This document shows positions 131 through 13,233 of a DNA stretch of 13,233 nt, one piece after another. The position numbers were made by a program, and so were the translations under genes. Origin of the DNA: Azolla caroliniana (lineage: Eukaryota > Plantae > Polypodiophyta); contig JBHGNT010000979.1 of assembly GCA_043228905.1 (NCBI GenBank), positions 1-13,233 on the forward strand. Direction: 5' to 3'. The notes under the pieces were generated by a model, which worked only from the letters and a program-made list of their open reading frames with translations, was not told where the DNA came from and ran no database searches. Positions within the stretch are counted from its first letter, which is position 1. Each line of letters opens with the position of its first letter.

Positions 131-508
131 TGACAGGAACACACGCTCCTGATGAACAACGCTCGGCCACAACCGAGCTTAGAATCAAAACACAGAAAAA
201 AAAACGGGAATGAATGCACGACACAATGGAGAGAAGAGAACACAAGATGTTAACGTGGAAAAACCCAAACTAGGGAAAAAACCACGACAGCCCACAGACT
301 ACAAACTATCACTATGTCAAAATGTACAAATGGTAAAGCACCGAAGCAACGACCTCGAGCTTTCTATCTTCGCCACAGGCGGCGGTTACAACAGAGGCAA
401 CAACCTCTTCCTCTCTCTCACTCTCTCTGTACACAGTTGCGCGCTCTAATCTTGCGCCAACAAGAATGACAACAACTCTCAACCAATGACTAAGTTTGCC
501 CTAAGTCA

Positions 509-516
509 TATTTATA
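509..516 (-). promoter_or_regulatory. Putative TATA box of the copia LTR
   Basis: TATAAATA on the minus strand in mid-LTR, overlapping a 10-bp inverted repeat (503-512 / 519-528). Confidence 0.5.
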
Positions 517-640
517 CTAATATGACTTTTCGGCTATTTACAAATATAGCCCCGATGGACTCTCAGAAAACATATTTACGAATATGTCTCTTCATCCGGT
601 GAGCACTTCTCACCGGGCCTTCACCATCCAACTCTTGCCA

Positions 641-724
641 GGTACTCGTCATCTGGTTCTCACCGGGTCTTCCGTAGCTGGGTACTCCTCATCTGGTTCT
701 CACCGGGTCTTCCGTAGCCGGGTA
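641..724. repeat. 40-bp tandem duplication in the copia U3 region
   Basis: 641-680 and 681-720 differ at 2 positions (GGTACTCsTCATCTGGTTCTCACCGGGTCTTCCGTAGCyG). A partial copy lies at 607-621. Confidence 0.9.
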
Positions 725-812
725 GTCCACATTCGGTTTCAGCCTCGGCCGAGTTTACTCATCAGTACTGTTCTTCTCACTTCCCATCCGGAGGGACCTG
801 TTTCCGAACAAA

Positions 813-826
813 CTCCCCCTTCACTC
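813..826 (-). other. Copia polypurine tract (PPT)
   Basis: GAGTGAAGGGGGAG on the minus strand, 2 nt before the TG of the 3' LTR, overlapping the pol stop codon. Confidence 0.9.
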
Positions 827-3800
827 CGGCATGGGATGTCTTACTAGTCCGATCTGCTTTCGGCATGCATCCAACTTGTCGGGTATCAGTACTTTGGTCA
901 GCATATCTGACCCGTTCTCAGCCGTGTGGATCTTCGTTAACACGAACTTCTGGTCATCTACTCTTTCCCGGATCCAATGATACCTTCGCTGGATATGCTT
1001 CGTCCAGGAATGGTAGGCCGCATTCTTAGCAAGGTGGATGGCACTTTGATTGTCGCAATAGAGTCGATATTCATCTTGCCGGATACCGAGCTCTCCGATG
1101 AAGTCCTTCATCCATAATATTTCCTTGCCGGCTTCCACAGCCGCCATGTACTCCGCGCCTTCGTGGTTGACAGCGCAACCGTCTTCTGCAGCCTCGACTG
1201 CCACGAAACACCTCCCCCTGCATATGTCATTACATACCCGAATGTAGACCGGCTAGTATCCACATCAGCCGACATGTTTGAATCGGTAAAACCGTCAAGT
1301 TGAGGTTTTCCGGAGCCGAATCGAAGACACATATTTGAAGTGCCCTTCAAGTACCGGAGTATCCATTTGACCGTGTTCCAGTGCTCCTTGCCGGGATTGC
1401 TCATAAACCGGCTCACCACTCCGACTGCGTATCCTATATCCGGTCGGGTACACACCATTGCATACATTAAGCTCCCGATGGCAGAGGCATATGGAACCTT
1501 CATCATATCCACCTTCTCTGCTTTTGTCTTCGGTCTTTGCTTACCGGATAACCTGCAGTTTGCCGGAAATGTCGATCCGACCGGTTTCGCATCTGACATG
1601 TTGAACCGCTGAAGCACCTTTGTCATGTATTTCTCCTGTGACAGCCACAATTGCTTCGTTGGCCGGTTCCGGATGATATGCATCCCCAACATCTGTCTTG
1701 CCGGACCCAAGTCTTTCATCGCAAAGGTTCGGTTGAGAGCCTTCTTCAGCATCCGTATTTTGGCTTGGTCCCGTCCGACGATCAACATGTCGTCCACGTA
1801 TAGAAGGAGTATCAGGAAGTCGCCTCCTTCGAACTTCTTCACAAACACACAGTGATCAGCCTGTGTCTTGTGGTACCCTTGATCGGTCATAAGGAGTCGA
1901 ACTTCCGGTACCATTGTCGGGGAGCCTGCTTCAGTCCGTACAGGCTCTTCTTCAACCGAAAAACCAAGCGCTCCTTCCCTTTCTCCACGAATCCTTCCGG
2001 TTGCTGCATGCAGATCTCCTCTTCGAGGTCACCGTGAAGGAATGACGTCTTCACGTCTAACTGCTCTACCTCGAGGTCCATGCTTGCCGCTATACTCAGC
2101 ACCGTCCGGATGGAGGTCATCTTTACTACCGGGGTTCATTATCTTCTTCTCCGACTCCCAGTCGGTGAGTGTCTTGTCCTCCATGAAGATAATATCTCGA
2201 CTCCGGAATACCTTCTTGTCGACCAGGTCCCACACTCGGTAGCCGAACTCATCGTCGCCGTAACCGAGGAATATGCATGGCCGGGTCTTCGGATCTAGTT
2301 TTCCTCTCCGGTCCTTAGCTACATGCACATACGCAAGACACCCGAATACCTTCAGATGCCGGTAGGATACTTCCTTACCGATCCATACTCTCTGTGGCGT
2401 GTCTCCGTCCAAGGGTACTGAGGGTGATATGTTTATCACATATGTCGCCGTTGACATTTCCTCTGCCCAAAACTTCTTGGGTAGTTTTGCATGCGCCATC
2501 ATACTCCGGACCCTCTCCATTATGCTCCAGTTCATCCTCTCGGCCAGCCTGTTTAGTTCCGGCGTCTTCGGCACGGTAAATTTGAGCCGGATTCCCTTCG
2601 AGCGACAATACTGCTCGAACTGCCCCCGGTATTTCACCTCCGTTATCTGCTCGAACCGCCTTCAGCTTCCGGCCAGTTTCTCTTTCCACTCTCGCGTGGA
2701 GCTCTTTGAAGACGGATAGCACCTGATCATTCTTCTTCAACGGTGTGGCCCACAACTTCCGGCTGTGGTCATCTATGAACGTCACGAAGTACTGTGATCC
2801 TGCATGTGACTTCGTGTCCACTTGACACACATCAGTATGCACCAACTCCAGTGGTGCATTACGTCTCATCGGTGGCCTTGGTCGGAAGGAGGTCTGGTTT
2901 TGCTTACCGACCAGACAATTAGTGCACTTCTCTAAGTGCACGTTCTTCACTGAAATGAGGTTGTCGTCTGCAAGCCTCTTCATCCCCTTCTCGCTCATGT
3001 GACATAGCCTTTTGTGCCACAGCTCACCGGCAGTGTCAGATGCCACATTCACTTCCTCCGGACATAACCGGGCATTCATCAGGTACAACATGTTTACCTT
3101 CCGGGCCCGAGCCACAATCAGGCTCCCTTTGCTGAACTTCATAACACCGTTCCGGATGCTACCCGTGTAGCCTTCATCATCTAGCCAACCGACTGATATC
3201 AGGTTCAGACGAACCTCCGGAACGTGTCAGACATCCTTCAGCAGCATCTTGCATCCGGTTGGTGTTGTCAGCCACACGTCTCCTATGCCGACAATTCGGC
3301 ATGTACCTTCATTCCCCATCCGGACAAAGCCGTGATCACCGGCTGAGTAGGATGAGAAGCATTTCCAATCCGGGGTAAGGTGGAACAACGCTCCGGAGTC
3401 GACCACCCAGGTCATCTCGTCACCGGCAAGGTTTATCTCACTCTCCTTGGTGATGAGCATCAACTCTTCTTCACTTGCCGCAATTGTCGTCGTTCCCTTC
3501 CGGTTCGGCCCCCTCCGGTCTTTACTATTTCGGTCCGATGTCTGCTTGGAATCGGTACCGTCGGTTTCCTTGTCTTTTTGGAAATGCCGACAGTTCTTCT
3601 AGAAGTGTCCCGGCTTGCCGCAATAGAAGCAAGTAGGTCTCCCCCTTGACTTTGACCGTATCCCTGACTTTTCCCGGTTTTGGGGACTATGGTTCCTTTG
3701 TCTTCCGCGTTCCAATTCGGTAAGGAGCGCTTTGGAGTCGGAGCTCGTATCCTTATCTTTCCGACGCGCCTCCTCATCTAGCAAGCTCGACTTCACTCTT

Positions 3801-4325
3801 GCTAGGGATAACCGTTTCCCTTCCGGCCCGGCGTTGCCCAAGGTGACAACCAACGTCTCCCAGCTATCTGGGAGGGAACCGAGCAGGAGTAGTGCTAGTA
3901 CCTCATTGGCAAGAGGTACTTCCAATGATGTTGCCTGGTGGATCAGCCCCTGGAAGGCATTCATGTGCTCCGCCATGCTGGAGCCATCTTGGTACCGGAG
4001 TCTTACTAGCTTCCGGAATACCGAAACCTGATTAACAACATTTTTGTTTTAAAACATAATGTCGATCTTCTCCAAGAGCTCATGAGCCTTGCTCTCTTCA
4101 TTGAAGTTGTTGTATAGACTCATGTCGATGAAACACCGTATGTACGCCGTTGTCTTTATGTGCATCACTTCCCATATCGTGGCATCGATTTTGTCCGGTC
4201 TCTTGTCCCCGAACTAAAACCGGCAACCAAAGATCTTTAACCACGAGCATGTCTCTCATCTTCGACTTCCACACCGAATAGTTGGAGCCGGTGAGCTTGA
4301 ACATGCCTCCCAACGAATCATCCAT
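821..4325 (-). pseudogene. Copia gag-pol polyprotein, disrupted by frameshifts, stops and an internal deletion
   Basis: Gag N-terminus KLTGSNYSVWKSKM. Zinc knuckle CFYCGKPGHF*KNC (TAG 3599-3601). Protease WVVDSGA (DSGA 3389-3400). TGA at 3227-3229. Integrase LWHKRLCH..CTNC, HTDVC, RADNGGE, AERMN. RT YVDD (1789-1800). RNase H GFTDS.., CDNQSAI, TKHI. The fragments are spread over several frames. Confidence 0.95.
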
Positions 4326-4340
4326 TTTCTGTGTCGTTTC

Positions 4341-4352
4341 GCTCTAATACCA
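4341..4352 (-). other. Copia primer-binding site (tRNA-iMet type)
   Basis: TGGTATTAGAGC, 3 nt after the LTR-terminal CA. One mismatch to the canonical plant TGGTATCAGAGC. Confidence 0.92.
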
Positions 4353-4355
4353 CTT

Positions 4356-4529
4356 TGACAGGAACACACGCTCCTGATGAACAACGCTCGGCCACAACCG
4401 AGCTTAGAATCAAAACAGAAAAAAAAACGGGAATGAATGCACGGCATAATGGAGAGAAGAGAACACAAGATGTTAACGTGGAAAAACCCAAACTAGGGAA
4501 AAAACCACGGCAGCCCACAGACTACAAAC
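4356..4529 (-). repeat. Copia 5' LTR remnant (3' 174 bp only)
   Basis: Matches 131-306, and similarity ends abruptly after ACTACAAAC (4529). Confidence 0.92.
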
Positions 4530-4887
4530 AACACGTTCGCGTTCACAAGTGGAAGGATCGCGCATAAATGGAAGCATAAGGGAAATTTTAGGGGTTTTTC
4601 AATGATTTTACAAAACACATTGATACCAGTATCATACAAGTTCAAACATACTATGAAAAAGGTTAAAAATCCACTATTTTCGTGATTTAGAAGTAACTAA
4701 AAAAAGACGAATTTCAAAAACATACATTCTCAATTTATATCACAAACTTTACAACCAATGTTATTTTATAAGAAACGATTTTTGGGAAATCATAAGAATT
4801 CAAAACACATGATTTTATATTACTCGATTTGTTACAAGCGGAATGTAGTTACACTTAATAGCCAAATATACATTCATGATCACTCCT

Positions 4888-7668
4888 TTACGGAGAATCA
4901 CTACTATAACTAATATACAATGACGATTCCTCCTCATCATCCTCGGATGTACCAATCAGTGCATTATCTTCGTCATAAACCAAATGGTTTGACTCTAGAT
5001 TATATGTAGCAGATCTCGTTTGCCTTTGACTCGAGCCACCTTGTAGACCTGGTAATTTTTCTTTTATTATATCTATTGTTGACTTCCTTAATCGTCCGGC
5101 TTTTGTAAGTGTGAAGTCGTACACGATGATATCCACATCAGAGATATCAAGGGTCGAGGTGTTACGAATGTTTCGCTTCCTCTTCCTACCTCCCCTTCTT
5201 GTTTGGCATTCAATCATCTCCAATGTATACTTACCTGTAAAAGCATTTGCACTTCTAGTGTTGTACCAATGAACATTTATAGACTTGATCGTGTTTTCTA
5301 TTTCATGCATTAGCACTTCTAGAATTTTACCAACCCAAAATTGGTGGCCATGTGAGTTCTCATCAGCCGGCGTTGCAATCAACATCCCCGCGGTGAGCTC
5401 TTGCAAATTTCCTTGCCATCTAGCTTCAGCTGCTTTGGTCATCCTTGGTCCCACATAAATGTCTCTTTGTTGTGGATGGACCAAGCTGTCATTAATCGCA
5501 TTTACTAGTCGCTCCGGACTTCTATTTACGCGATCATGTTGCAGCGACCATGTGAATGGCGTTTCCAAATTCCAATTATCAACAGATACACAATTGTCTA
5601 TAATTTCTTTCTGATCACTATAAAATACATCCCACCATGACGTGTCTTGTTGTGCGGCATATTTCTTGGCGGCCTCAATATGCTTTCTTTTTTCTTCTAA
5701 GGCTTGGAGCCATGACCGTTTTTGTTCTGATACCAAGTCGCTCTGCAACTGTCCTTTCTTCTCAATTGGCATTTGCTTAGCTCCATGGACAATTGTACTC
5801 GGCATACAAAGTAATAACTGGCAACCACCTTCAGGTTCCCATGTTGTAGAAGATGAATATTGTTTAGCATACAAAACTGTAGAACCACTTATTCCATTTT
5901 TCTTTATCAAAAAAATGTGATTGAAACTTATATTGTTTAACTGAGCAAGCACTTTAACATTCCCACCACCCCCATCTAATATATATCTCTTAAAGTCATA
6001 TACCTCCTTCAAGTGTAACACTTTTGGGCGTGGTGTATATGCATCACAAATGACATCAAATAGTTTAGGTAAAGTGAAAGCATCATGCCGAGACAACTGT
6101 CTGGAGAATGTGCTAAACATCTGATCTATATGGTCATGTGTGTGGCCAACCAAAAGGAAATTGACTTTCACTTTCCTAAACAATTCTAGGTTGACCAACA
6201 TACTTAGATAGCCAAATACAGTTGAATTTTTGTTCTCTCTAGCAGTATTGTCCAATTGAATGTATAGAACAGGGGGGAAAGGTTGTCCCCAAGACATCAA
6301 AACTCGGTGAATCACTGTAACTGTTAGGTTAGGGTCATTGTGAACATTGGGGTAAGTAATGAAGACGTGAGGTCGAACAGACCTATTATAAGCCAAGCAT
6401 CCCACCAAGTGCATTTGAACAAGGCACTCATCATTGACATCTTTGGGGAGCCTCCGCATATGCGGCAAGCATGTCTTCTTCTGGTCCATGCCATCTATCA
6501 TTAAGCACATGTATTGTTCAGGCCTCTTCAAACACTTCTCTCTATGATGCATCGCCTTCCTTCGTTCTAAGGATTGTGCCTCACGATGCTCTTGTAGTAA
6601 CTTCTTACTCGTATCCTTTTCCATTGATGTCTTTGCACCTTTAGCCAAACTTTTAAGATTTGCACAAATGGAGCAATACCCCATACGTACTTTACGAGGA
6701 ATAATAACATTTGAAAACTGAGCTCTCCATAATCTTGTGAATTGGCTATAGGTGATAGACTTATTACGTGAGCCCAGCATTTCAGATCGATAGACATCAT
6801 AAACTTCCCGACGGGTATAATTATCAGAAAGATGCATCCTACCCGTAGTGGGCATTACTTCACAATTTAACTGAAAGTAAGTTTTCATCCAGCCAATAGC
6901 TAGTCTTCCAATTGCACCTTTCATACTTGGAACCTCTTTACAATTGAGCATCTGATCCCCGCTAAGTAGACGTTGTTGTACTCTATGTAGCCGCATGTTA
7001 CTAACACATAACGCAATTTTGAATGCAACTCTACATATCTGTTGCGCATGGAAGATATAATACTCGAATGATACTTTGATCCCCGTACATTTGTTAGATA
7101 CTAGTTGCATATGTGATCCGAGGTAAGTGTCTTGCTCATCACCGGTCATCGAAAAATAGTATCGCCTTAATTCTCGCAACTTTGATTTTCCAATCATAGA
7201 CATACAACCACGGGCACACCATATTTTGTTGACATCAAATCCAATCTGTTTATCTGATGTCACCAAGCTAAATCTAGCCAGACGAATTCTTCGTGGGATT
7301 CTTCTAATATGCATAGGGCTCCCAGATTTCTCTTCCTGCATAGAGGTTGGTGTAACCTTGTTACAGTCTAATTCTCTGTTCTGACCATCGCCAATGTTAT
7401 TCAATGTTTCCTAGGCACTTCCTTCATTCTCGGTATCTTTATTAATATCGTATTCTTCAATAGAGAACTCTTCACATGTGTCATTATTTACATTCCCTGT
7501 AGATGAGCTCAGACAATATTCTTCGATAGAATATGGTGAGTCGGTCGAAAGACAATATTCTTCAATCGAATATGGTGACTCTGTTGACAAACAATACTCT
7601 TCAGTAGAAAACGATGGGTCTGATGACAAACAATATTCTTCAATCGAGAACGGTGAATCTTCACTCAT
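4888..7668 (-). pseudogene. Sola1-like (DUF7869-type) DDD transposase, 926 codons with one in-frame TAG at 7411-7413
   Basis: ORFs 7411-7668 and 4888-7404 share a frame (the latter's start is TTG). Motifs: ICRVAFKIALCVSxxR; CSIC (6664-6675) followed by His; IDGMDQKKT (D 6493-6495); YIQLDNTARENKN (D 6250-6252); FLLVGHTHDHIDQMFS (D 6124-6126); basic NLS-like RRGGRKRKR; acidic tail. Family assigned from remembered motifs. Confidence 0.75.
7510..7665 (-). repeat. 4 x 39-bp coding tandem repeat (13-aa acidic unit, S.(D/E)SP(F/Y)SIEEYCL)
   Basis: SEDSPFSIEEYCL / SSDPSFSTEEYCL / STESPYSIEEYCL / STDSPYSIEEYCL, plus a partial FSIEEY at 7450-7467. Confidence 0.9.
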
Positions 7669-7941
7669 GGCTTAAGGTCTAGAAAGGGCTCTCTAAGTTA
7701 TACTCCTCTCTAACCATATACTCCTCCCTAAACATAAACTTCTCTCTAAACAAGAGCCAAATCAATAGAATGTCTATATTATGTAATATTCTATTAATAC
7801 AATACATCTAAAAACTATTTTTAATAAAGTAATTTAACTTAAATTATCAATCATTATATAAACTAGATCTAAATGATGTTAAATCAAGTAAAATATAAAA
7901 CTAATCATTAACAAGCCTTGAATATGTTGGATTAATGTTAA

Positions 7942-8127
7942 AATCATTGGCTAATTAATGACACCCATTTTGATATAGAACGTCTCACTCATTGGTTCTT
8001 TAATGCTCACCATTTTAAATATTAGACTTATCAATCATTGGTTAATTCATGCCCACATCTTTAATACATAACATTTGAGAGTCATAAAAATTGTTGCTTT
8101 TAGTAATCAATCATTGGTACATTCATG
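7942..8127. promoter_or_regulatory. Degenerate ~45-bp repeats, each with an inverted CCAAT box, between the divergent genes
   Basis: TCATTGG-N5-T(A/C)ATG units with ATTGG at 7946, 7991, 8037 and 8113. A further ATTGG is at 8295. Confidence 0.55.
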
Positions 8128-8339
8128 AACCTCTATCATTGTCTCCTTCATAACCTTTGAAGTGATTGTAGGTTGTTATGACTATAAAAGATTGATCAAT
8201 ATGTTAGTTTGACTTTGTAATCATTAATACAATCATAAGTTACTCTAGTTAATGTGACTATGGTTACCAACTAACTATACTCAAAGTTACCAACATTGGT
8301 TAAGGTGACTATGGTTACTTTAACCATGGGTTCAATCCC

Positions 8340-8347
8340 TATAAATA
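8340..8347 (+). promoter_or_regulatory. TATA box of the plus-strand spliced gene
   Basis: TATAAATA about 25-30 nt before an initiator-like TCACTCA and 151 nt before the ATG at 8491. Confidence 0.6.
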
Positions 8348-8373
8348 GGAAGACCTCATCATATTTCACTCAC

Positions 8374-8457
8374 CAGAGCGTACAGAGCGTACAGAGCACA
8401 CAGAACGCAGAGAGCACACAGAGCACACAAAGCACTCAGAGCACAAAGCACGAAAGC
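8374..8457 (+). repeat. 9-bp minisatellite (CAGAGCACA-like) in the putative 5' UTR
   Basis: cagagcgta x2, cagagcaca, cagaacgca, gagagcaca, cagagcaca, caaagcact, then shorter units. Confidence 0.85.
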
Positions 8458-8490
8458 GCGATCTCCGCCTCCACTTCAACACGATCAACC

Positions 8491-8525
8491 ATGTCTTCAA
8501 AGAGAATCGAGCGCGAGGACTCCAG
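8491..8525 (+). CDS. Exon 1 of an unknown spliced gene (MSSKRIEREDS-R)
   Basis: ATG in AACCATG context downstream of a TATA box. Donor AG|GTAGGC at 8525/8526, phase 2. Confidence 0.6.
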
Positions 8526-8575
8526 GTAGGCCTCTGACACTGTGGACATTTTTGTAAATATGTTTCGTTTCTCAA

Positions 8576-9166
8576 GAACTCGATACGGTGTATCGAGTTC
8601 ATGTATACAATACAAATATTTAAACACGAACTCGATACGCCGTATCGAGTTCGTGTATAAATATTTGTATTGTATACATGAACTCGATACGGCGTATCGA
8701 GTTCATGTTTAAAGTGTAGGTTTTAAACACAAACTCGATACGCCGTATCGAGTTCGTGTTTAAAGTGTAGGTTTTAAACACGAACTCGATACGGCGTATC
8801 GAGTTCGTGTATAAATATTTGTATTGTATACACGAACTCGATACGCCGTATCGAGTTCGTGTATAAATATTTGTATTGTATACACGAACTCGATACGCCG
8901 TATCGAGTTCGTGTATAAATATTTGTATTGTATACACGAACTCGATACGCCATATCGAGTTCGTGTTTAAAGTGTAGGTTTTAAACACGAACTCGATACG
9001 CCGTATCGAGTTCGTGTTTAAAGTGTAGGTTTTAAACACGAACTCGATACGCCGTATCGAGTTCGTGTTTAAAACCTACACTTTAAACATGAACTCGATA
9101 CGGCGTATCGAGTTCCGGTTTAAAGTGTAGGTTTTAAACACGAACTCGATACGCCGTATCGAGTCC
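8576..9166. repeat. Array of 12 palindromes (ACACGAACTCGATACG-C/G-CGTATCGAGTTCGTGT) with two spacer types in both orientations
   Basis: 25-bp cores start at 8576, 8628, 8680, 8731, 8782, 8834, 8886, 8938, 8989, 9040, 9091, 9142. Spacer A = ATAAATATTTGTATTGTAT (19 bp), B = TTAAAGTGTAGGTTTTAA (18 bp). Order A',A,B,B,A,A,A,B,B,B',B (' = reverse complement). Confidence 0.97.
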
Positions 9167-9589
9167 CTGTATATAAGAAGGCTTTGAGAGAGAAAAATCG
9201 TTTATGGGGTGGAAATGATATCAAATTGTCTGGCAAAATCAGTCTTTTTTATGTTGACTTTACTTACTTTTAAAGAAATACATGCTCTAATTATAGGTGT
9301 TTTATGACCTACTTTAGCTTAATAAAGTAGAAAATGATCTACAAATTGCCTTCACTATGGCAAATTCTCCTCAATATAGGTTTAGAATCTATATAAGTCA
9401 TACCTACTATTTAAAAGAATATATAACCCGTTTTACTTATTACGATATATATTTTCTAGGTTGAATAGCCCTGCCTATAATAGATTTTTGAATATGTTAC
9501 TGCTCCTGGAAACTGTTCTTCATTATAATATACAACTTCAATCTACGTGACTGTCTAACTTATGTTTTTGCATATACTTTCTTAAATAG

Positions 9590-9827
9590 GTCGTTTGAGA
9601 ACCTGTCGGACCGACCCGTGAAGAAAATTAAGCTTCGCATACAAGGTTCTCCAATCGAAGCCCAGACCAAGGTAACTCCTGAGACCATGAAGAGAGGAAA
9701 AAAGCTTCTCTTTAACGAAGAGACAAAATCTCAGCCACATAGTGAAGTTAGCCAAAAGAAACTTGTCGCCGTTACTGGAGGCGAAGACCTTCCTGACCGA
9801 GATCTAACGGACAAGGAATTGTCATAA
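9590..9827 (+). CDS. Exon 2 of the unknown spliced gene (NLS-like PVKKIKL), truncated by the gypsy LTR
   Basis: Branch-point CTAAC 9555-9559, T-rich tract, acceptor TAG|G at 9589/9590. AG+G makes Arg, then the frame continues SFENLSDRP into the 9618-9827 ORF. The stop codon lies within the LTR. Confidence 0.6.
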
Positions 9828-9890
9828 CTAGACTCGAACCCATAACCTTTTGTTACACGGGTCGAGACTTTACCATTAGGTTATGAGTTG
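9820..9890 (-). other. tRNA-like module with Pol III A/B-box motifs at the LTR edge (not a functional tRNA)
   Basis: Minus strand CAACTCA-TA-ACCTAATGGTAAAGT-...-AGGTT-ATGGGTTCGAGTCTAGT-TATGACA: 71 nt with tRNA-like spacing. Anticodon and acceptor stems pair poorly. Confidence 0.55.
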
Positions 9891-9942
9891 TAATTTGAAG
9901 GATATTATTTTCATTTAGGTTTTATTAGGAAATTGATGTATA

Positions 9943-9990
9943 TTCCAGATTTCTCTGGAACATTCTAGAAACTTCAGGAGTATTCCTGAA
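9943..9990 (+). promoter_or_regulatory. Heat-shock element array
   Basis: TTCcaGATttCTCtgGAAcaTTCtaGAAacTTCagGAGtaTTCctGAA: 10 in-phase alternating nGAAn/nTTCn units, 7 perfect, ending 5 nt before the TATA box. Confidence 0.8.
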
Positions 9991-9995
9991 GACAC

Positions 9996-10002
9996 TATAA
10001 AA
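9996..10002 (+). promoter_or_regulatory. Gypsy LTR TATA box
   Basis: TATAAAA, 33 nt upstream of the self-primer sequence at 10029. Confidence 0.75.
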
Positions 10003-10109
10003 GGAGGCGCAAGGCATTAGTTCGAACCAAATCGGTTCAACGCCAGTCTTAAGCCTTCTAACTACTGTTGTATATCTTCCGTCATATAATACATATATCT
10101 TTCGCATCA

Positions 10110-10113
<4 letters not shown>

Positions 10114-10167
<54 letters not shown>
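10114..10167. repeat. (TC)27 microsatellite inside the gypsy LTR
   Basis: Uninterrupted TC run. Confidence 0.97.
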
Positions 10168-10171
<4 letters not shown>

Positions 10172-10306
10172 ACTCATTCCTTCTCTCAAAGTTCGACACC
10201 TCTCATAGTACTAATCCTTCTCTGTCTTAGTACTATTCCCCAACAATAGTACTAATCCTTCTTTTAGTACTAATTCCTTCTCTGCCTTAATAGAGTTCCT
10301 GACAGT

Positions 10307-10318
10307 TTGAACCGATTT
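10307..10318 (+). other. Self-priming primer-binding site
   Basis: TTGAACCGATTT is the exact reverse complement of AAATCGGTTCAA at 10029-10040. No TGG-type tRNA PBS is present. Confidence 0.8.
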
Positions 10319-10394
10319 TCCTCCTACTAGTCTCCCTCTTCCTTCTGTCTCTCTCCTTTCCTACTAGTCTCTTATTTCCCTTTTCCTTCATCCC

Positions 10395-11551
10395 ATGGCC
10401 ACCGTTAGCGCTGAAGAGTATCAATCCGTTTTCTCGGAATTTCAATGCTTGAAAGAGAAGTTTCATGCTTTGGAACAAGAAAATCAACGCTTGTTGGGGG
10501 ATCTTCAGCAAATTTCCTTAGAAAAGCAGCAAACGCAACAACAGCATGGGGAACTTGCGTTACGCGTGCAACAACTCGAAGCAACCATCGTAGCAATGCA
10601 ACAACAAGGGCACGGAGCACAAGGGATTCATAAAGAACCCAAGATTGGCCTTCCCACGAAGTTCGATGGAACGCGATCGCAGTTTAGAGGGTTTCTTAAC
10701 CAGGTACGGTTAGTTATTCAAATGCATCCGTCCCGATATCCCACCGATGCATCACGAGTGGGTTTAGTAGGCACGTTGTTAACTGGCTCAGCATTAGCAT
10801 GGTTCGCACCGCTACTAGAAAAGGAATCTCCAGTACTAAATAATTTTGAAGAATTCATAAGTGAGTTTAAAGCATGTTTTGGAGATACTGACAGCATAAG
10901 GACTGCAATCAACAAAATCCGGCGATTACGCCAAGGTGACCGTCCAGCCTCCGCATATGCTGCAGATTTCCGCCTACTCGCCGCCGATATCCCCTGGGAT
11001 GATCAAGCATTGATGGAGCAGTTCCGCTATGGTCTACGCAACGATGTCAAGGATTTACTCTTGACTTTCCCTGAAGAGCCAAAATCATTAACAGAAGCAA
11101 TCAGTCGAGCGGTCAGATGTGACAACCGCCTCTTCGAGCGACGTTCGGAACGACAATTTCAGATGCCGAGGGCAAGATCCGAGCCTACCTATGCCTCAAT
11201 GGTAGCGAAACCTTTTCAAAGGGAGTCACATAATGCGCCTCCAGTAAGTACTCCAACTCCAATGGAAATTGACACTACACGTCGTCGTGGGCCGCTATCG
11301 GAGGAGGAAAAGCAACGACGCCGAACAAACCGATTATGCCTTTAGGGCATATCGCGATAAACTGTCCCCATAGACCAAGAAGGCAGGTAAACCAAGTCAT
11401 TGTTAGTTCTGACTATACTAAACCCGAGTCTATGTCAGTAGGAATCTCTGATAATCCTCATAGTCATAATAGTCCTAATAGTACTAATAGTCCGAATCTC
11501 GCAAACAAATTTGATGTCCTTAGCCAATTAGAAGAAGAGTTAAACGACTAA
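10395..11551 (+). pseudogene. gag: Gypsy gag, with a frameshifting deletion in the zinc knuckle
   Basis: Coiled-coil N-terminus, capsid region (LRQG..ASAYAADFR..W.DQAL..QFRYGL..DVKD) and PMEID motif. The knuckle is split into RLCL* (TAG 11343-11345) and GHIAINCP in another frame that ends at 11551. Confidence 0.9.
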
Positions 11552-13233
11552 GTCCAGCCAAAATAGGAGCCGTTTGGTTGGACAGCCCTAGATCTGTGCA
11601 GCCCATTAGTGGTTCCATTCCCTCTAAGCAAGTTAGTGATGTGTTCGTAGTCCAAGTAGCAGTTAGTACTAAAAGTACCCCTCCAGTACATACCTTAGCC
11701 CTTCTAGATTCCGGAGCTAATTCTTGCTTCATGGATAGGAATTTTGCCCGAGCTCATCAGATATCTCTAAGAAAGCTCCCATGTCCAGCCTCAGTAGTAG
11801 TCATTGATGGTCGTCCCATTGCTTCTGGTAATATCATAGAAGAGTCGGAACCCGTTAATATTGTCCTAGATAACTTAACATGTGTAGTATCATTTAATAT
11901 TATTAGTATTCCAGAACATCCCATAGTTTTAGGATTACCATGGTTCGAGTTACATGACCCAGACATAGATTGGAGGACAAGGGAAATCCGGTTGCGACAA
12001 ACCCAAGGATCTACCCAGAAGGTTGCAACCATTTCGCTACGTCAGTTGCGTGAGGAAGGGCGCAAGGAGGAAATGTTTCTCTTTGCAATATCAGTACAAC
12101 CCTCCAGCACCACCAAAGAGGAGTCCACCGTTCAACTTCCCGAGAAGTATCGTCAGTATGCTGATGTGTTCGATAAAGTACAAGCCAACACACTTCCTCA
12201 TCATCGGCCGTACGACTGCGCCATCGACTTACAACCGGGAAAAGAGCCGCCATGGGGGCCGATCTACAATTTGTCACCAACCGAGCTAGAAGTCCTTCGA
12301 GCCTATATAGAGGAGAATTTGGAGAATGGTTTCATTCGGCATTCGAAATCTCCAGCCGGCGCACCCATTTTCTTCGTCAAGAAAAAAGATGGCTCGCTTC
12401 GACTCGTTGTAGATTACCGTGGCTTGAATAAGGTCACAGTAAGAAATAGGTATGCTCTTCCCCTTATCTCAAGTCTTTTAGAACGGATCAACGGTGCCAG
12501 GTTCTTCACGAAGATCGACTTACGAGGAGCCTATAACCTCGTACGGATCCGACCAGGAGATGAATGGAAGACCACGTTTCGCACCAGATATGGGCACTTC
12601 GAGTATACGGTCATGCCGTTCGGACTCACTAATGCGCCGGCAGTCTTCCAGCACATGGCGAATGATATATTTCGAGACCTCTTGGATGATTTTTTGATCA
12701 TCTATTTGGATGATCTACTGGTTTATTCAAAGACCCAAGAAGAACATGATTCTCATGTACTATTAGTACTAAAACGACTTCGAGAACATGGTCTGTATGC
12801 AAAGTTAGAGAAATGTAGTTTCGGGTGCAACCAAGTGGAGTTTCTCGGCTATGTCATCTCCTCAGAAGGCATATCTATGGACCCAGCCAAGGTCAAAACG
12901 GTGATAGAATGGCACACTCCGCGTTCGGTGCGGGATGTGCAATGCTTCCTAGGCTTTGCAAATTTCTACCGGAAGTTCATACAAAATTACTCAAAAATTG
13001 TGCTGCCTCTCACACAGCTCACCAGGAAGGGACAATCATTCATTTGGTCTAAAGAGACGGACATGGCTTTCGAGAGTCTTAAGAAGGCGTTTACATCAGC
13101 TCCAATTTTAGGTCATGTGGATCCGGAAAAACCATTCATTATCGAAGCTGATGCATCGGATTTCGCATTGGGGAGCATTCTGTCACAACAGGGTAACGAC
13201 GAGAAGCTACATCCTGTGGCTTTCCACTCCCGT
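11524..13233 (+). CDS. pol: Gypsy pol (protease, RT, start of RNase H), open to the window end
   Basis: Frame read by hand with no stop after TAG 11521-11523: LLDSGA (11701-11718), VLGLPWF, LPHHRPYDC, FVKKKDGSLRLVVDYRGLN, MPFGLTNAP, YLDD (12703-12714), FLGFANFYRKFI, EADASDFALG. Missing from the ORF track, probably because it has no stop in the window. Confidence 0.96.
11539..11590 (+). promoter_or_regulatory. Putative -1 programmed ribosomal frameshift signal
   Basis: G_TTA_AAC (11539-11545) in the gag frame inside the gag/pol overlap, then a 6-nt spacer and an 11-bp stem GTCCAGCCAAA / TTTGGTTGGAC (11552-11562 / 11573-11583). Confidence 0.75.

What the first reader, a model, noticed from the sequence alone, without database searches (positions are those of the whole stretch)
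8340..9827. Hidden spliced gene missed by the ORF track
Seen: TATA (8340), AACCATG (8491), GT donor (8526), CTAAC branch point (9555) and AG acceptor (9589) define a 1064-bp intron that joins in frame. The product is MSSKRIEREDSRSFENLSDRPVKKIKLRIQGSPIEAQTKVTPETMKRGKKLLFNEE...DLTDKELS* (90 aa). It is charged and probably disordered, with an NLS-like PVKKIKL, SP/TP sites and a KKLLF motif resembling a cyclin-docking site (speculative). I do not recognise the family.
Basis: partly seen in the sequence, partly recalled or inferred. Interest (0 to 1): 0.7.

Follow-up and report, generated by a model that had tools for sequence, protein, structure and literature searches.

The report
Truncated transposon ParB-methylase gene with palindromes
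The predicted spliced gene is the cut-off front end of a much longer gene carried by a many-copy plant jumping element; intact relatives fuse a predicted bacterial-type ParB DNA-binding fold to a DNA-methylase domain that likely binds a row of palindromes in the gene's own first intron and would mark the element's DNA, a design already reported in algae.

Summary
All named signals are present. The 35-nt exon 1 and its donor recur in 2 of 2 relatives long enough to show them, the acceptor in 6 of 7, and exon 2 is under purifying selection. No RNA junction was seen.

The 90-aa product is not real: a Ty3/Gypsy LTR inserted at 9820 supplies the stop. Uninterrupted copies continue; one models as about 974 aa: low-confidence N-terminus, ParB-like fold, beta-class N6/N4 DNA methyltransferase.

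The gene lies head-to-head with a DUF7869 DDE-fold transposase inside an element with a 36-bp terminal inverted repeat (Sola1-like). Intron 1 holds 12 copies of a 23-bp palindrome at 51-52 bp spacing, nearly invariant across relatives whose synonymous sites are saturated. The ParB region likely binds it (untested).

The design is in print for algae (Ectocarpus Sola1-1_Ec32; Bostrychia Plavaka). I found no land-plant report. This scan has already noted the family on many other pieces of this genome. This copy looks dead.

The parts
4530..4565 (.). Left terminal inverted repeat of the DNA transposon (begins AACAC)
   Evidence: 97% over 36 nt to the reverse complement of L002 4865-4900, which lies downstream of an intact copy of the gene; 37 contigs of run X1 have unrelated flanks (agreement 0.38) before 4530
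4888..7671 (-). DUF7869 transposase gene (predicted RNase H DDE/D fold, winged helix, C-terminal BAH-like domain); in-frame stop at 7411-7413 in this copy
   Evidence: Pfam DUF7869 E 1e-51; homologues of 905-932 aa; near-invariant D306, D387, invariant D429; fold matches Mos1 Z 8.3 (rmsd 3.7, 161 aligned) and integrases; most summed depth at 7413 carries another base
7672..8347 (.). Divergent promoter region: five CCAAT-type boxes and the TATA box at 8340
   Evidence: the TATA context aligns with L007; function inferred
8491..8525 (+). Predicted coding exon 1 (35 nt) of the ParB-methyltransferase gene
   Evidence: same length and AG|GT donor in L006 and L007
8526..9589 (+). Predicted intron 1 (1064 bp; 584 bp in L007, 785 bp in L006)
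   Evidence: no RNA junction seen
8573..9173 (.). Array of 12 palindromes (23-bp core AACTCGATACG-S-CGTATCGAGTT) at 51-52 bp period; candidate parS-like site
   Evidence: 29 units in the window and 5 loci, 13 changes in 638 positions, 10 of them CpG transitions
9590..9819 (+). Remnant of exon 2 (230 nt; the exon is about 1.64 kb in L002)
   Evidence: homologues 62-97% identical; continuation in contigs; L002 model
9820..13233 (+). Ty3/Gypsy retrotransposon inserted into exon 2; its LTR supplies the apparent stop at 9825-9827
   Evidence: begins TG; a contig of X21 aligns from exactly 9820 with another flank, and summed depth jumps beyond 9830; gag and pol Pfam hits
131..4529 (-). Ty1/Copia element whose 5' LTR was the insertion target of the DNA transposon (context)
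   Evidence: LTR copies 97% alike up to 306/4529; 17 + 17 contigs continue the LTR behind 4529; Pfam

Best explanation
The feature is the 5' end of the second gene of a multi-copy plant DNA transposon, cut by a Gypsy LTR at 9820; intact relatives encode a predicted ParB-like fold fused to a bacterial-type amino-methyltransferase domain, which likely binds the palindrome array in its own predicted first intron and would methylate the element's DNA. Shown: conserved exon 1 and splice signals, LTR truncation, an open six-exon-type frame in L002, head-to-head DUF7869 gene, a terminal inverted repeat, and a conserved phased array. Predicted: ParB N-terminal and helical DNA-binding folds, homodimer, nuclear import through the basic N-terminus. 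Inferred: the dimer recognises the 23-bp palindromes (about 0.6); the methyltransferase is active, more likely N6-adenine than N4-cytosine (about 0.5); the mark, laid next to the shared divergent promoter, helps the family stay transcribed or tells its own copies apart (about 0.3). This copy appears dead: the gene is truncated before both domains and the transposase has a stop.
For: Truncation. Splice-site and frame conservation. Full gene: L002 exons 2-6 give 962 aa with no internal stop and four GT-AG introns; introns 2 and 3 sit at the same places in L001 and L003. Methyltransferase: L002 exon 5 hits Pfam N6_N4_Mtase at 35.1 bits, cut-off 26.7; 6 of 28 long homologues pass the cut-off; P0130 matches RsrI, MboIIA and CcrM; motif IV precedes motif I. 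ParB: 13 Foldseek matches at E up to 0.001, the listed ones all ParB/Noc; VIA PadC Z 9.5 (rmsd 3.1, 100 aligned), pNOB8 ParB Z 7.9 (rmsd 5.3, 210 aligned). Homodimer model 0.50 against best control 0.00, runs agreeing in at least 61% of contacts, pLDDT at least 71; the mark was reached by 21 of 30 solved pairs and 0 of 23 single chains, and a pass may come from memory of ParB structures. Element. Array: cores nearly invariant while spacers between loci are 43-77% alike; present in 5 of 5 loci that reach the region; no half-site elsewhere in the window. Riccia locus tags R1sor_010795 (DUF7869) and R1sor_010796 (ParB-MTase) are adjacent.
Against: No binding, activity or expression data. The Box II GxxR arginine of ParB CTPases is absent in 16 of 16 aligned rows, so clamp loading and sliding may not apply. 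Motif IV is D-[I/F/A/L]-P-[Y/H], not DPPY or SPPY; the first proline acts through its backbone carbonyl and 1 of 3 phage enzymes checked has DVPY, which softens but does not remove the doubt. The DNA-binding-domain matches alone are weak (Z 3.8-4.7). L007 has no DUF7869 match in the 1.7 kb upstream of its promoter, and none of the Chara ParB-MTase locus tags seen is next to the one Chara DUF7869 tag seen. No single locus showed both genes and both ends. Retrotransposon DAMs gave no 6mA in E. coli, and plants lack the AMT1-6mA pathway, so a reader of the mark is unknown.
Confidence: 0.6

Rival explanations
1. The protein is an autoregulator or brake: its ParB part binds the intron-1 array just downstream of the shared divergent promoter and represses or limits both genes (as recalled for KorB/SopB), and the methyltransferase is weak or acts only as a SAM/DNA-binding module.
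For: The array begins 51-85 bp after the donor and within about 250 bp of the TATA box; KorB is among the top fold matches; motif IV and Box II are non-canonical.
Against: Motif IV Asp-x-Pro-Tyr, QKP and the FxGxG loop are kept from Chara to ferns, which suggests selection on catalysis; the family is very abundant in DNA runs.
Confidence: 0.2
2. The array is a binding site for the transposase (its winged-helix region) or a host factor and helps pair the ends; the ParB-methyltransferase acts elsewhere or without sequence specificity.
For: The transposase model has a winged helix at 163-241 resembling RFX; the terminal repeat shares a short GAACxCGA stretch with the array unit (read from the sequence, not tested against chance).
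Against: The array is inside the ParB gene, 4 kb from the left end, and no half-sites occur near the terminal repeat. In Bostrychia, inverted-repeat arrays accompany ParB genes on an unrelated (Plavaka) transposase.
Confidence: 0.15
3. One reading: a stand-alone 90-aa disordered nuclear protein with cyclin-docking and CDK sites.
For: The spliced frame is open and ends in a stop; KKIKL and K[KR]LLF are conserved.
Against: The stop lies in an inserted LTR; all examined relatives run on; no RNA evidence.
Confidence: 0.03

Closest known systems
Sola1-1_Ec32 of Ectocarpus (PMC12477816; passages and supplement rows seen; its Fig. 1C not seen)
   Same: [quoted passage not shown]
   Different: Brown alga, 21.5 kb, 282-bp TIR. 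The main text has no occurrence of 'palindrom'. Here: streptophytes and land plants, about 974 aa, 36-bp TIR core, array inside predicted intron 1. Sequence homology to Ec32 was not tested.
Plavaka accessory genes PAG2/PAG3 of Bostrychia (bioRxiv 10.1101/2025.02.11.637652; passages; supplements closed)
   Same: Transposon-borne ParB-like protein with adjacent tandem arrays of inverted repeats, proposed to bind its own element; a PF01555 methylase on the same element.
   Different: EnSpm/Plavaka transposase; ParB fused to a 2OG oxygenase, methylase fused to SET in a separate gene.
Phage ParB-methyltransferase fusions of ParB-terminase loci (PMC4738411 passages; example Streptococcus phage Javan93 gene 16)
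   Same: ParB_N-like domain followed by N6_N4_Mtase; a likely ultimate source (inference).
   Different: Only the methylase part matches (301 phage records, none covering 80% of the query); ParB parts give no significant pairwise match; the phage example keeps DPPY and GxxR.
Bacterial ParB/parS, Noc, KorB
   Same: Predicted fold across N-terminal and helical domains, predicted dimer, and a palindrome array.
   Different: No GxxR arginine, no ParA seen, fused methylase; the palindrome has no exact match in prokaryotic genomes or viral contigs.
VANDAL/VANC anti-silencing (PMC5735166; abstract and section list)
   Same: Transposon-encoded protein whose targets are tandem repeats in the element's non-coding regions.
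   Different: Unrelated protein and transposase; removes 5mC rather than writing a mark.
Marchantia DN4MT1 and rotifer N4CMT (passages); DAM-carrying retrotransposons (bioRxiv 10.64898/2026.05.21.726589; part 1 of 5 and passages)
   Same: Prokaryote-type amino-methyltransferases in eukaryotes.
   Different: DN4MT1 and N4CMT have SPPY, no ParB, and are host genes; DAM elements are retrotransposons with an NPP motif.

Membership tests
Transposon ParB-methyltransferase accessory genes (Sola1-1_Ec32 type) | ParB-like domain | tested here: met
   In intact relatives; absent from this truncated copy
Transposon ParB-methyltransferase accessory genes (Sola1-1_Ec32 type) | N4/N6 DNA methyltransferase domain in the same protein | tested here: met
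   L002 model and Pfam PF01555 above cut-off; 6 of 28 homologues
Transposon ParB-methyltransferase accessory genes (Sola1-1_Ec32 type) | On the opposite strand to a transposase within a TIR element | tested here: met
   Window layout plus TIR shared with L002; assembled from two copies, no single complete element seen
Sola1 DNA transposons | RNase H-fold transposase with three conserved Asp (DDD; definition recalled) | tested here: met
   D306, D387 near-invariant and D429 invariant in 77 sequences; fold; which residues are catalytic is inferred
Sola1 DNA transposons | 4-bp target site duplication | not testable with these tools
   The right end is outside the window; no locus held both ends
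Sola1 DNA transposons | Sequence similarity to reference Sola1 transposases | not testable with these tools
   No Repbase here; the two defining papers were not held
Sola1 DNA transposons | Termini like those of Sola1-1_Ec32 | tested here: inconclusive
   AAC...GTT shared, fourth base differs
ParABS partition ParB (CTPase clamp) | Box II GxxR motif | tested here: not met
   G-x-H-[S/T/C/Y] in place of GxxR; no Arg in 16 of 16 aligned rows, 2 of 18 rows gapped; by sequence alignment only
ParABS partition ParB (CTPase clamp) | Helical DNA-binding domain after the N-terminal domain | tested here: inconclusive
   Whole-region matches span about 290 columns; domain-only Z 3.8-4.7
ParABS partition ParB (CTPase clamp) | Cognate ParA | tested here: inconclusive
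   None among the ORFs scanned; whole element not seen
ParABS partition ParB (CTPase clamp) | Specific binding to a palindromic site | not testable with these tools
   Array present and conserved; binding needs an experiment
Beta-class amino-methyltransferases | Motif IV before motif I (FxGxG) | tested here: met
   DIPY at 692, DLFSGTG at 852 of the L002 model; class definition
Beta-class amino-methyltransferases | Canonical (D/N/S)PP(Y/F/W) motif IV | tested here: not met
   D-[I/F/A/L]-P-x throughout; a DVPY variant exists in an annotated phage methylase; activity untested

The most novel reading that the evidence does not exclude
Seed-free land plants and their relatives carry an abundant DNA transposon with a self-addressed epigenetic writer: a ParB-derived dimer loads on a phased parS-like array in its own first intron and deposits 6mA (or 4mC) over the element's divergent promoter, giving site-specific non-5mC DNA methylation in a lineage thought to have lost regulated 6mA, and a programmable-looking reader-writer pair with a 23-bp address.
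Probability: 0.25. Interest if true: 0.8.

Novelty: new member of a known kind. Interest (0 to 1): 0.45.

Why it matters
The ParB-methylase accessory gene has so far been only a prediction in algal genome papers. This family supplies an intact gene model (L002) and a sharply defined, conserved 23-bp candidate target, so binding and methylation can be tested directly. If active, it would be a transposon-written 6mA/4mC mark in land plants, where the AMT1-6mA pathway is reported lost (PMC12695648). For annotation, it gives DUF7869 a transposase-like fold and shows that the 90-aa ORF should not be catalogued as a new small protein.

Tried and rejected
Expression: no RNA holder listed. Guessed-RNA runs X20 and X22 gave no cover of either exon. 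This is no evidence either way. The two read-laying stretches did not span the intron, so a junction could only have shown as loose ends.

No own genome is held, so copy number, both ends and the target-site duplication were not obtained. Summed contig depth is not a copy number.

Pfam found nothing for exon 2 or for the ParB region, nor did PHROGs for L002 exon 2. The alignment profile found no PDB sequence. The Atlas had no usable hit for residues 49-230. Foldseek gave no match at E up to 0.001 for the transposase model; its fold call rests on VIA Z of about 8, which is middling.

No viral-contig relative of L002 exon 5. No exact palindrome in viral contigs or prokaryotic genomes. No Rfam family in 7600-10400, so no known RNA family explains the array.

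A Helitron- or CACTA-type end was considered and rejected: the terminus maps to 4530 (AACAC), not to the CAC at 4532.

My first L002 exon join had the intron-4 acceptor one base off and gave stops; it was corrected to the AG one base earlier.

Literature: no land-plant ParB-methylase transposon appeared in the listings; subscription journals and Repbase are not covered. One search was uninformative. Iyer et al. 2011, cited for green algae, was not read.

Full report
Observation. The gene structure is conserved. The two that extend far enough (L006, L007) have a 35-nt exon 1 ending AG|GT, and 6 of 7 have TAG|GTC before exon 2. Exon 2 differs from these loci at 65-92% of synonymous but 21-30% of non-synonymous sites; L005 is frameshifted. 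Intron DNA near the acceptor is at shuffled identity. Of 9 listed exon-2 variants among close copies, 6 are synonymous; that table was cut. Splicing is therefore well predicted but not shown: no RNA holder was listed.

The 90-aa product is an accident of insertion. The stop lies in sequence beginning TG at 9820 that leads into Ty3/Gypsy gag and pol. In two DNA runs 7 and 11 contigs leave the window after 9819 reading W-C-M-Q-Y, and another contig starts at 9820 with a different flank. All 6 protein homologues, from 63 candidates, continue the same way.

The full protein. L002 holds an uninterrupted copy from within intron 1 onward. Its exons 2-6 give 962 aa without a stop, about 974 with exon 1, and introns 2 and 3 recur in L001 and L003. 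A model of homologue P0006 is confident for about residues 283-593. Its best structural matches are ParB, Noc, KorB and PadC. A two-copy model scored 0.50 against 0.00 for the best of 3 controls, which may reflect memory of ParB structures. The C-terminal part is an N6/N4 methyltransferase of beta order. Two motifs are non-canonical: no GxxR arginine, and D-x-P-Y in place of DPPY. Relatives are named from Chara, Riccia, Adiantum and Ginkgo. With a 54% Ceratopteris match for the neighbouring gene, the host is likely a fern or similar plant (inference).

The element. The divergent DUF7869 gene models as an RNase H DDE/D-fold transposase with three conserved aspartates. Window 4530-4565 is the reverse complement of a stretch 1.15 kb downstream of the L002 gene (97%, 36 nt). 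In run X1, 37 contigs show unrelated flanks before 4530, while 17 + 17 contigs continue the Copia LTR there. The unit is thus TIR, transposase, shared promoter, ParB-methylase, TIR, pieced together from two copies. Adjacent Riccia locus tags support linkage; L007, with no transposase in 1.7 kb upstream, does not. This copy sits in a Copia LTR, is cut by Gypsy, and has a stop in its transposase that most copies lack.

The array. Intron 1 has 12 units at 51-52 bp. All 5 loci that reach this region have it. Over 29 units the 23-bp core shows 13 changes in 638 positions, 10 of them CpG transitions, while spacers between loci are 43-77% alike. Such conservation against saturated synonymous sites points to a protein-binding site, and a period near five helical turns would put all sites on one face (inference). 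The element's own dimeric ParB-like region is the simplest candidate.

Mechanism. I commit to self-recognition and self-marking: import, dimer binding to the array, amino-methylation of nearby element DNA, more likely 6mA since SPPY is absent. Binding is about 0.6, activity about 0.5, an anti-silencing benefit about 0.3. Autorepression and transposase binding are the rivals.

What is known. Ectocarpus Sola1-1_Ec32 has the same two-gene design with similar AAC...GTT termini (PMC12477816, passages and supplement rows). Bostrychia Plavaka elements pair a ParB gene with inverted-repeat arrays (bioRxiv 10.1101/2025.02.11.637652, passages; its supplements are closed and may list more). Earlier scan notes pointed me to the first paper, which my own search had listed unread. 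Those notes report this family on many other pieces of the same genome; they are not independent support. I found no land-plant account. Assignment to Sola1 rests on a recalled DDD definition and the Ec32 parallel; the target-site duplication and Repbase similarity were not testable.

Verdict. A real gene, misread at its 3' end: a dead copy of a new plant member of a known but untested kind of transposon accessory system. Interest 0.45.

Noticed in passing
P0006 residues 255-593 (homologue of the gene at window 8491-9819): Language-model features match fungal DUF3723 clusters at 0.95. DUF3723 is a conserved Starship cargo gene (bioRxiv 10.1101/2021.12.13.472469, passages; 'ParB' does not occur there), so DUF3723 may be ParB-like. 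A lead only.
   Followed up: partly
window 4888-5700 (-), transposase residues 663-780: The C-terminal domain resembles BAH domains (DNMT1 BAH1 Z 6.2, EBS Z 5.9), a possible chromatin reader on the transposase.
   Followed up: no
window 7513-7644: The transposase N-terminus is built of 13-codon repeats (3.4 copies), present in varied form in close homologues.
   Followed up: no
window 7946-8299 and 8374-8445: Five CCAAT-type boxes in the divergent promoter and eight 9-bp repeats in the predicted 5' UTR.
   Followed up: no
window 9820-13233: The Gypsy element has open gag (325 aa) and pol (570 aa to the window end) frames, so it may be young.
   Followed up: no
window 131-4529: Frameshifted Copia element whose 5' LTR was hit by the DNA transposon: three nested elements in 13 kb.
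   Followed up: partly
P0130 (Ginkgo Gb_37443): A seed-plant homologue with ParB-like remnant and methylase (motif DIPH); whether it lies in a transposon was not checked.
   Followed up: no
L006 454: A separate, decayed palindrome unit 228 bp after the main pair.
   Followed up: no
L002 5559-6367: A Copia-like fragment beyond the right terminal repeat, 68% alike to window 1318-2128.
   Followed up: no
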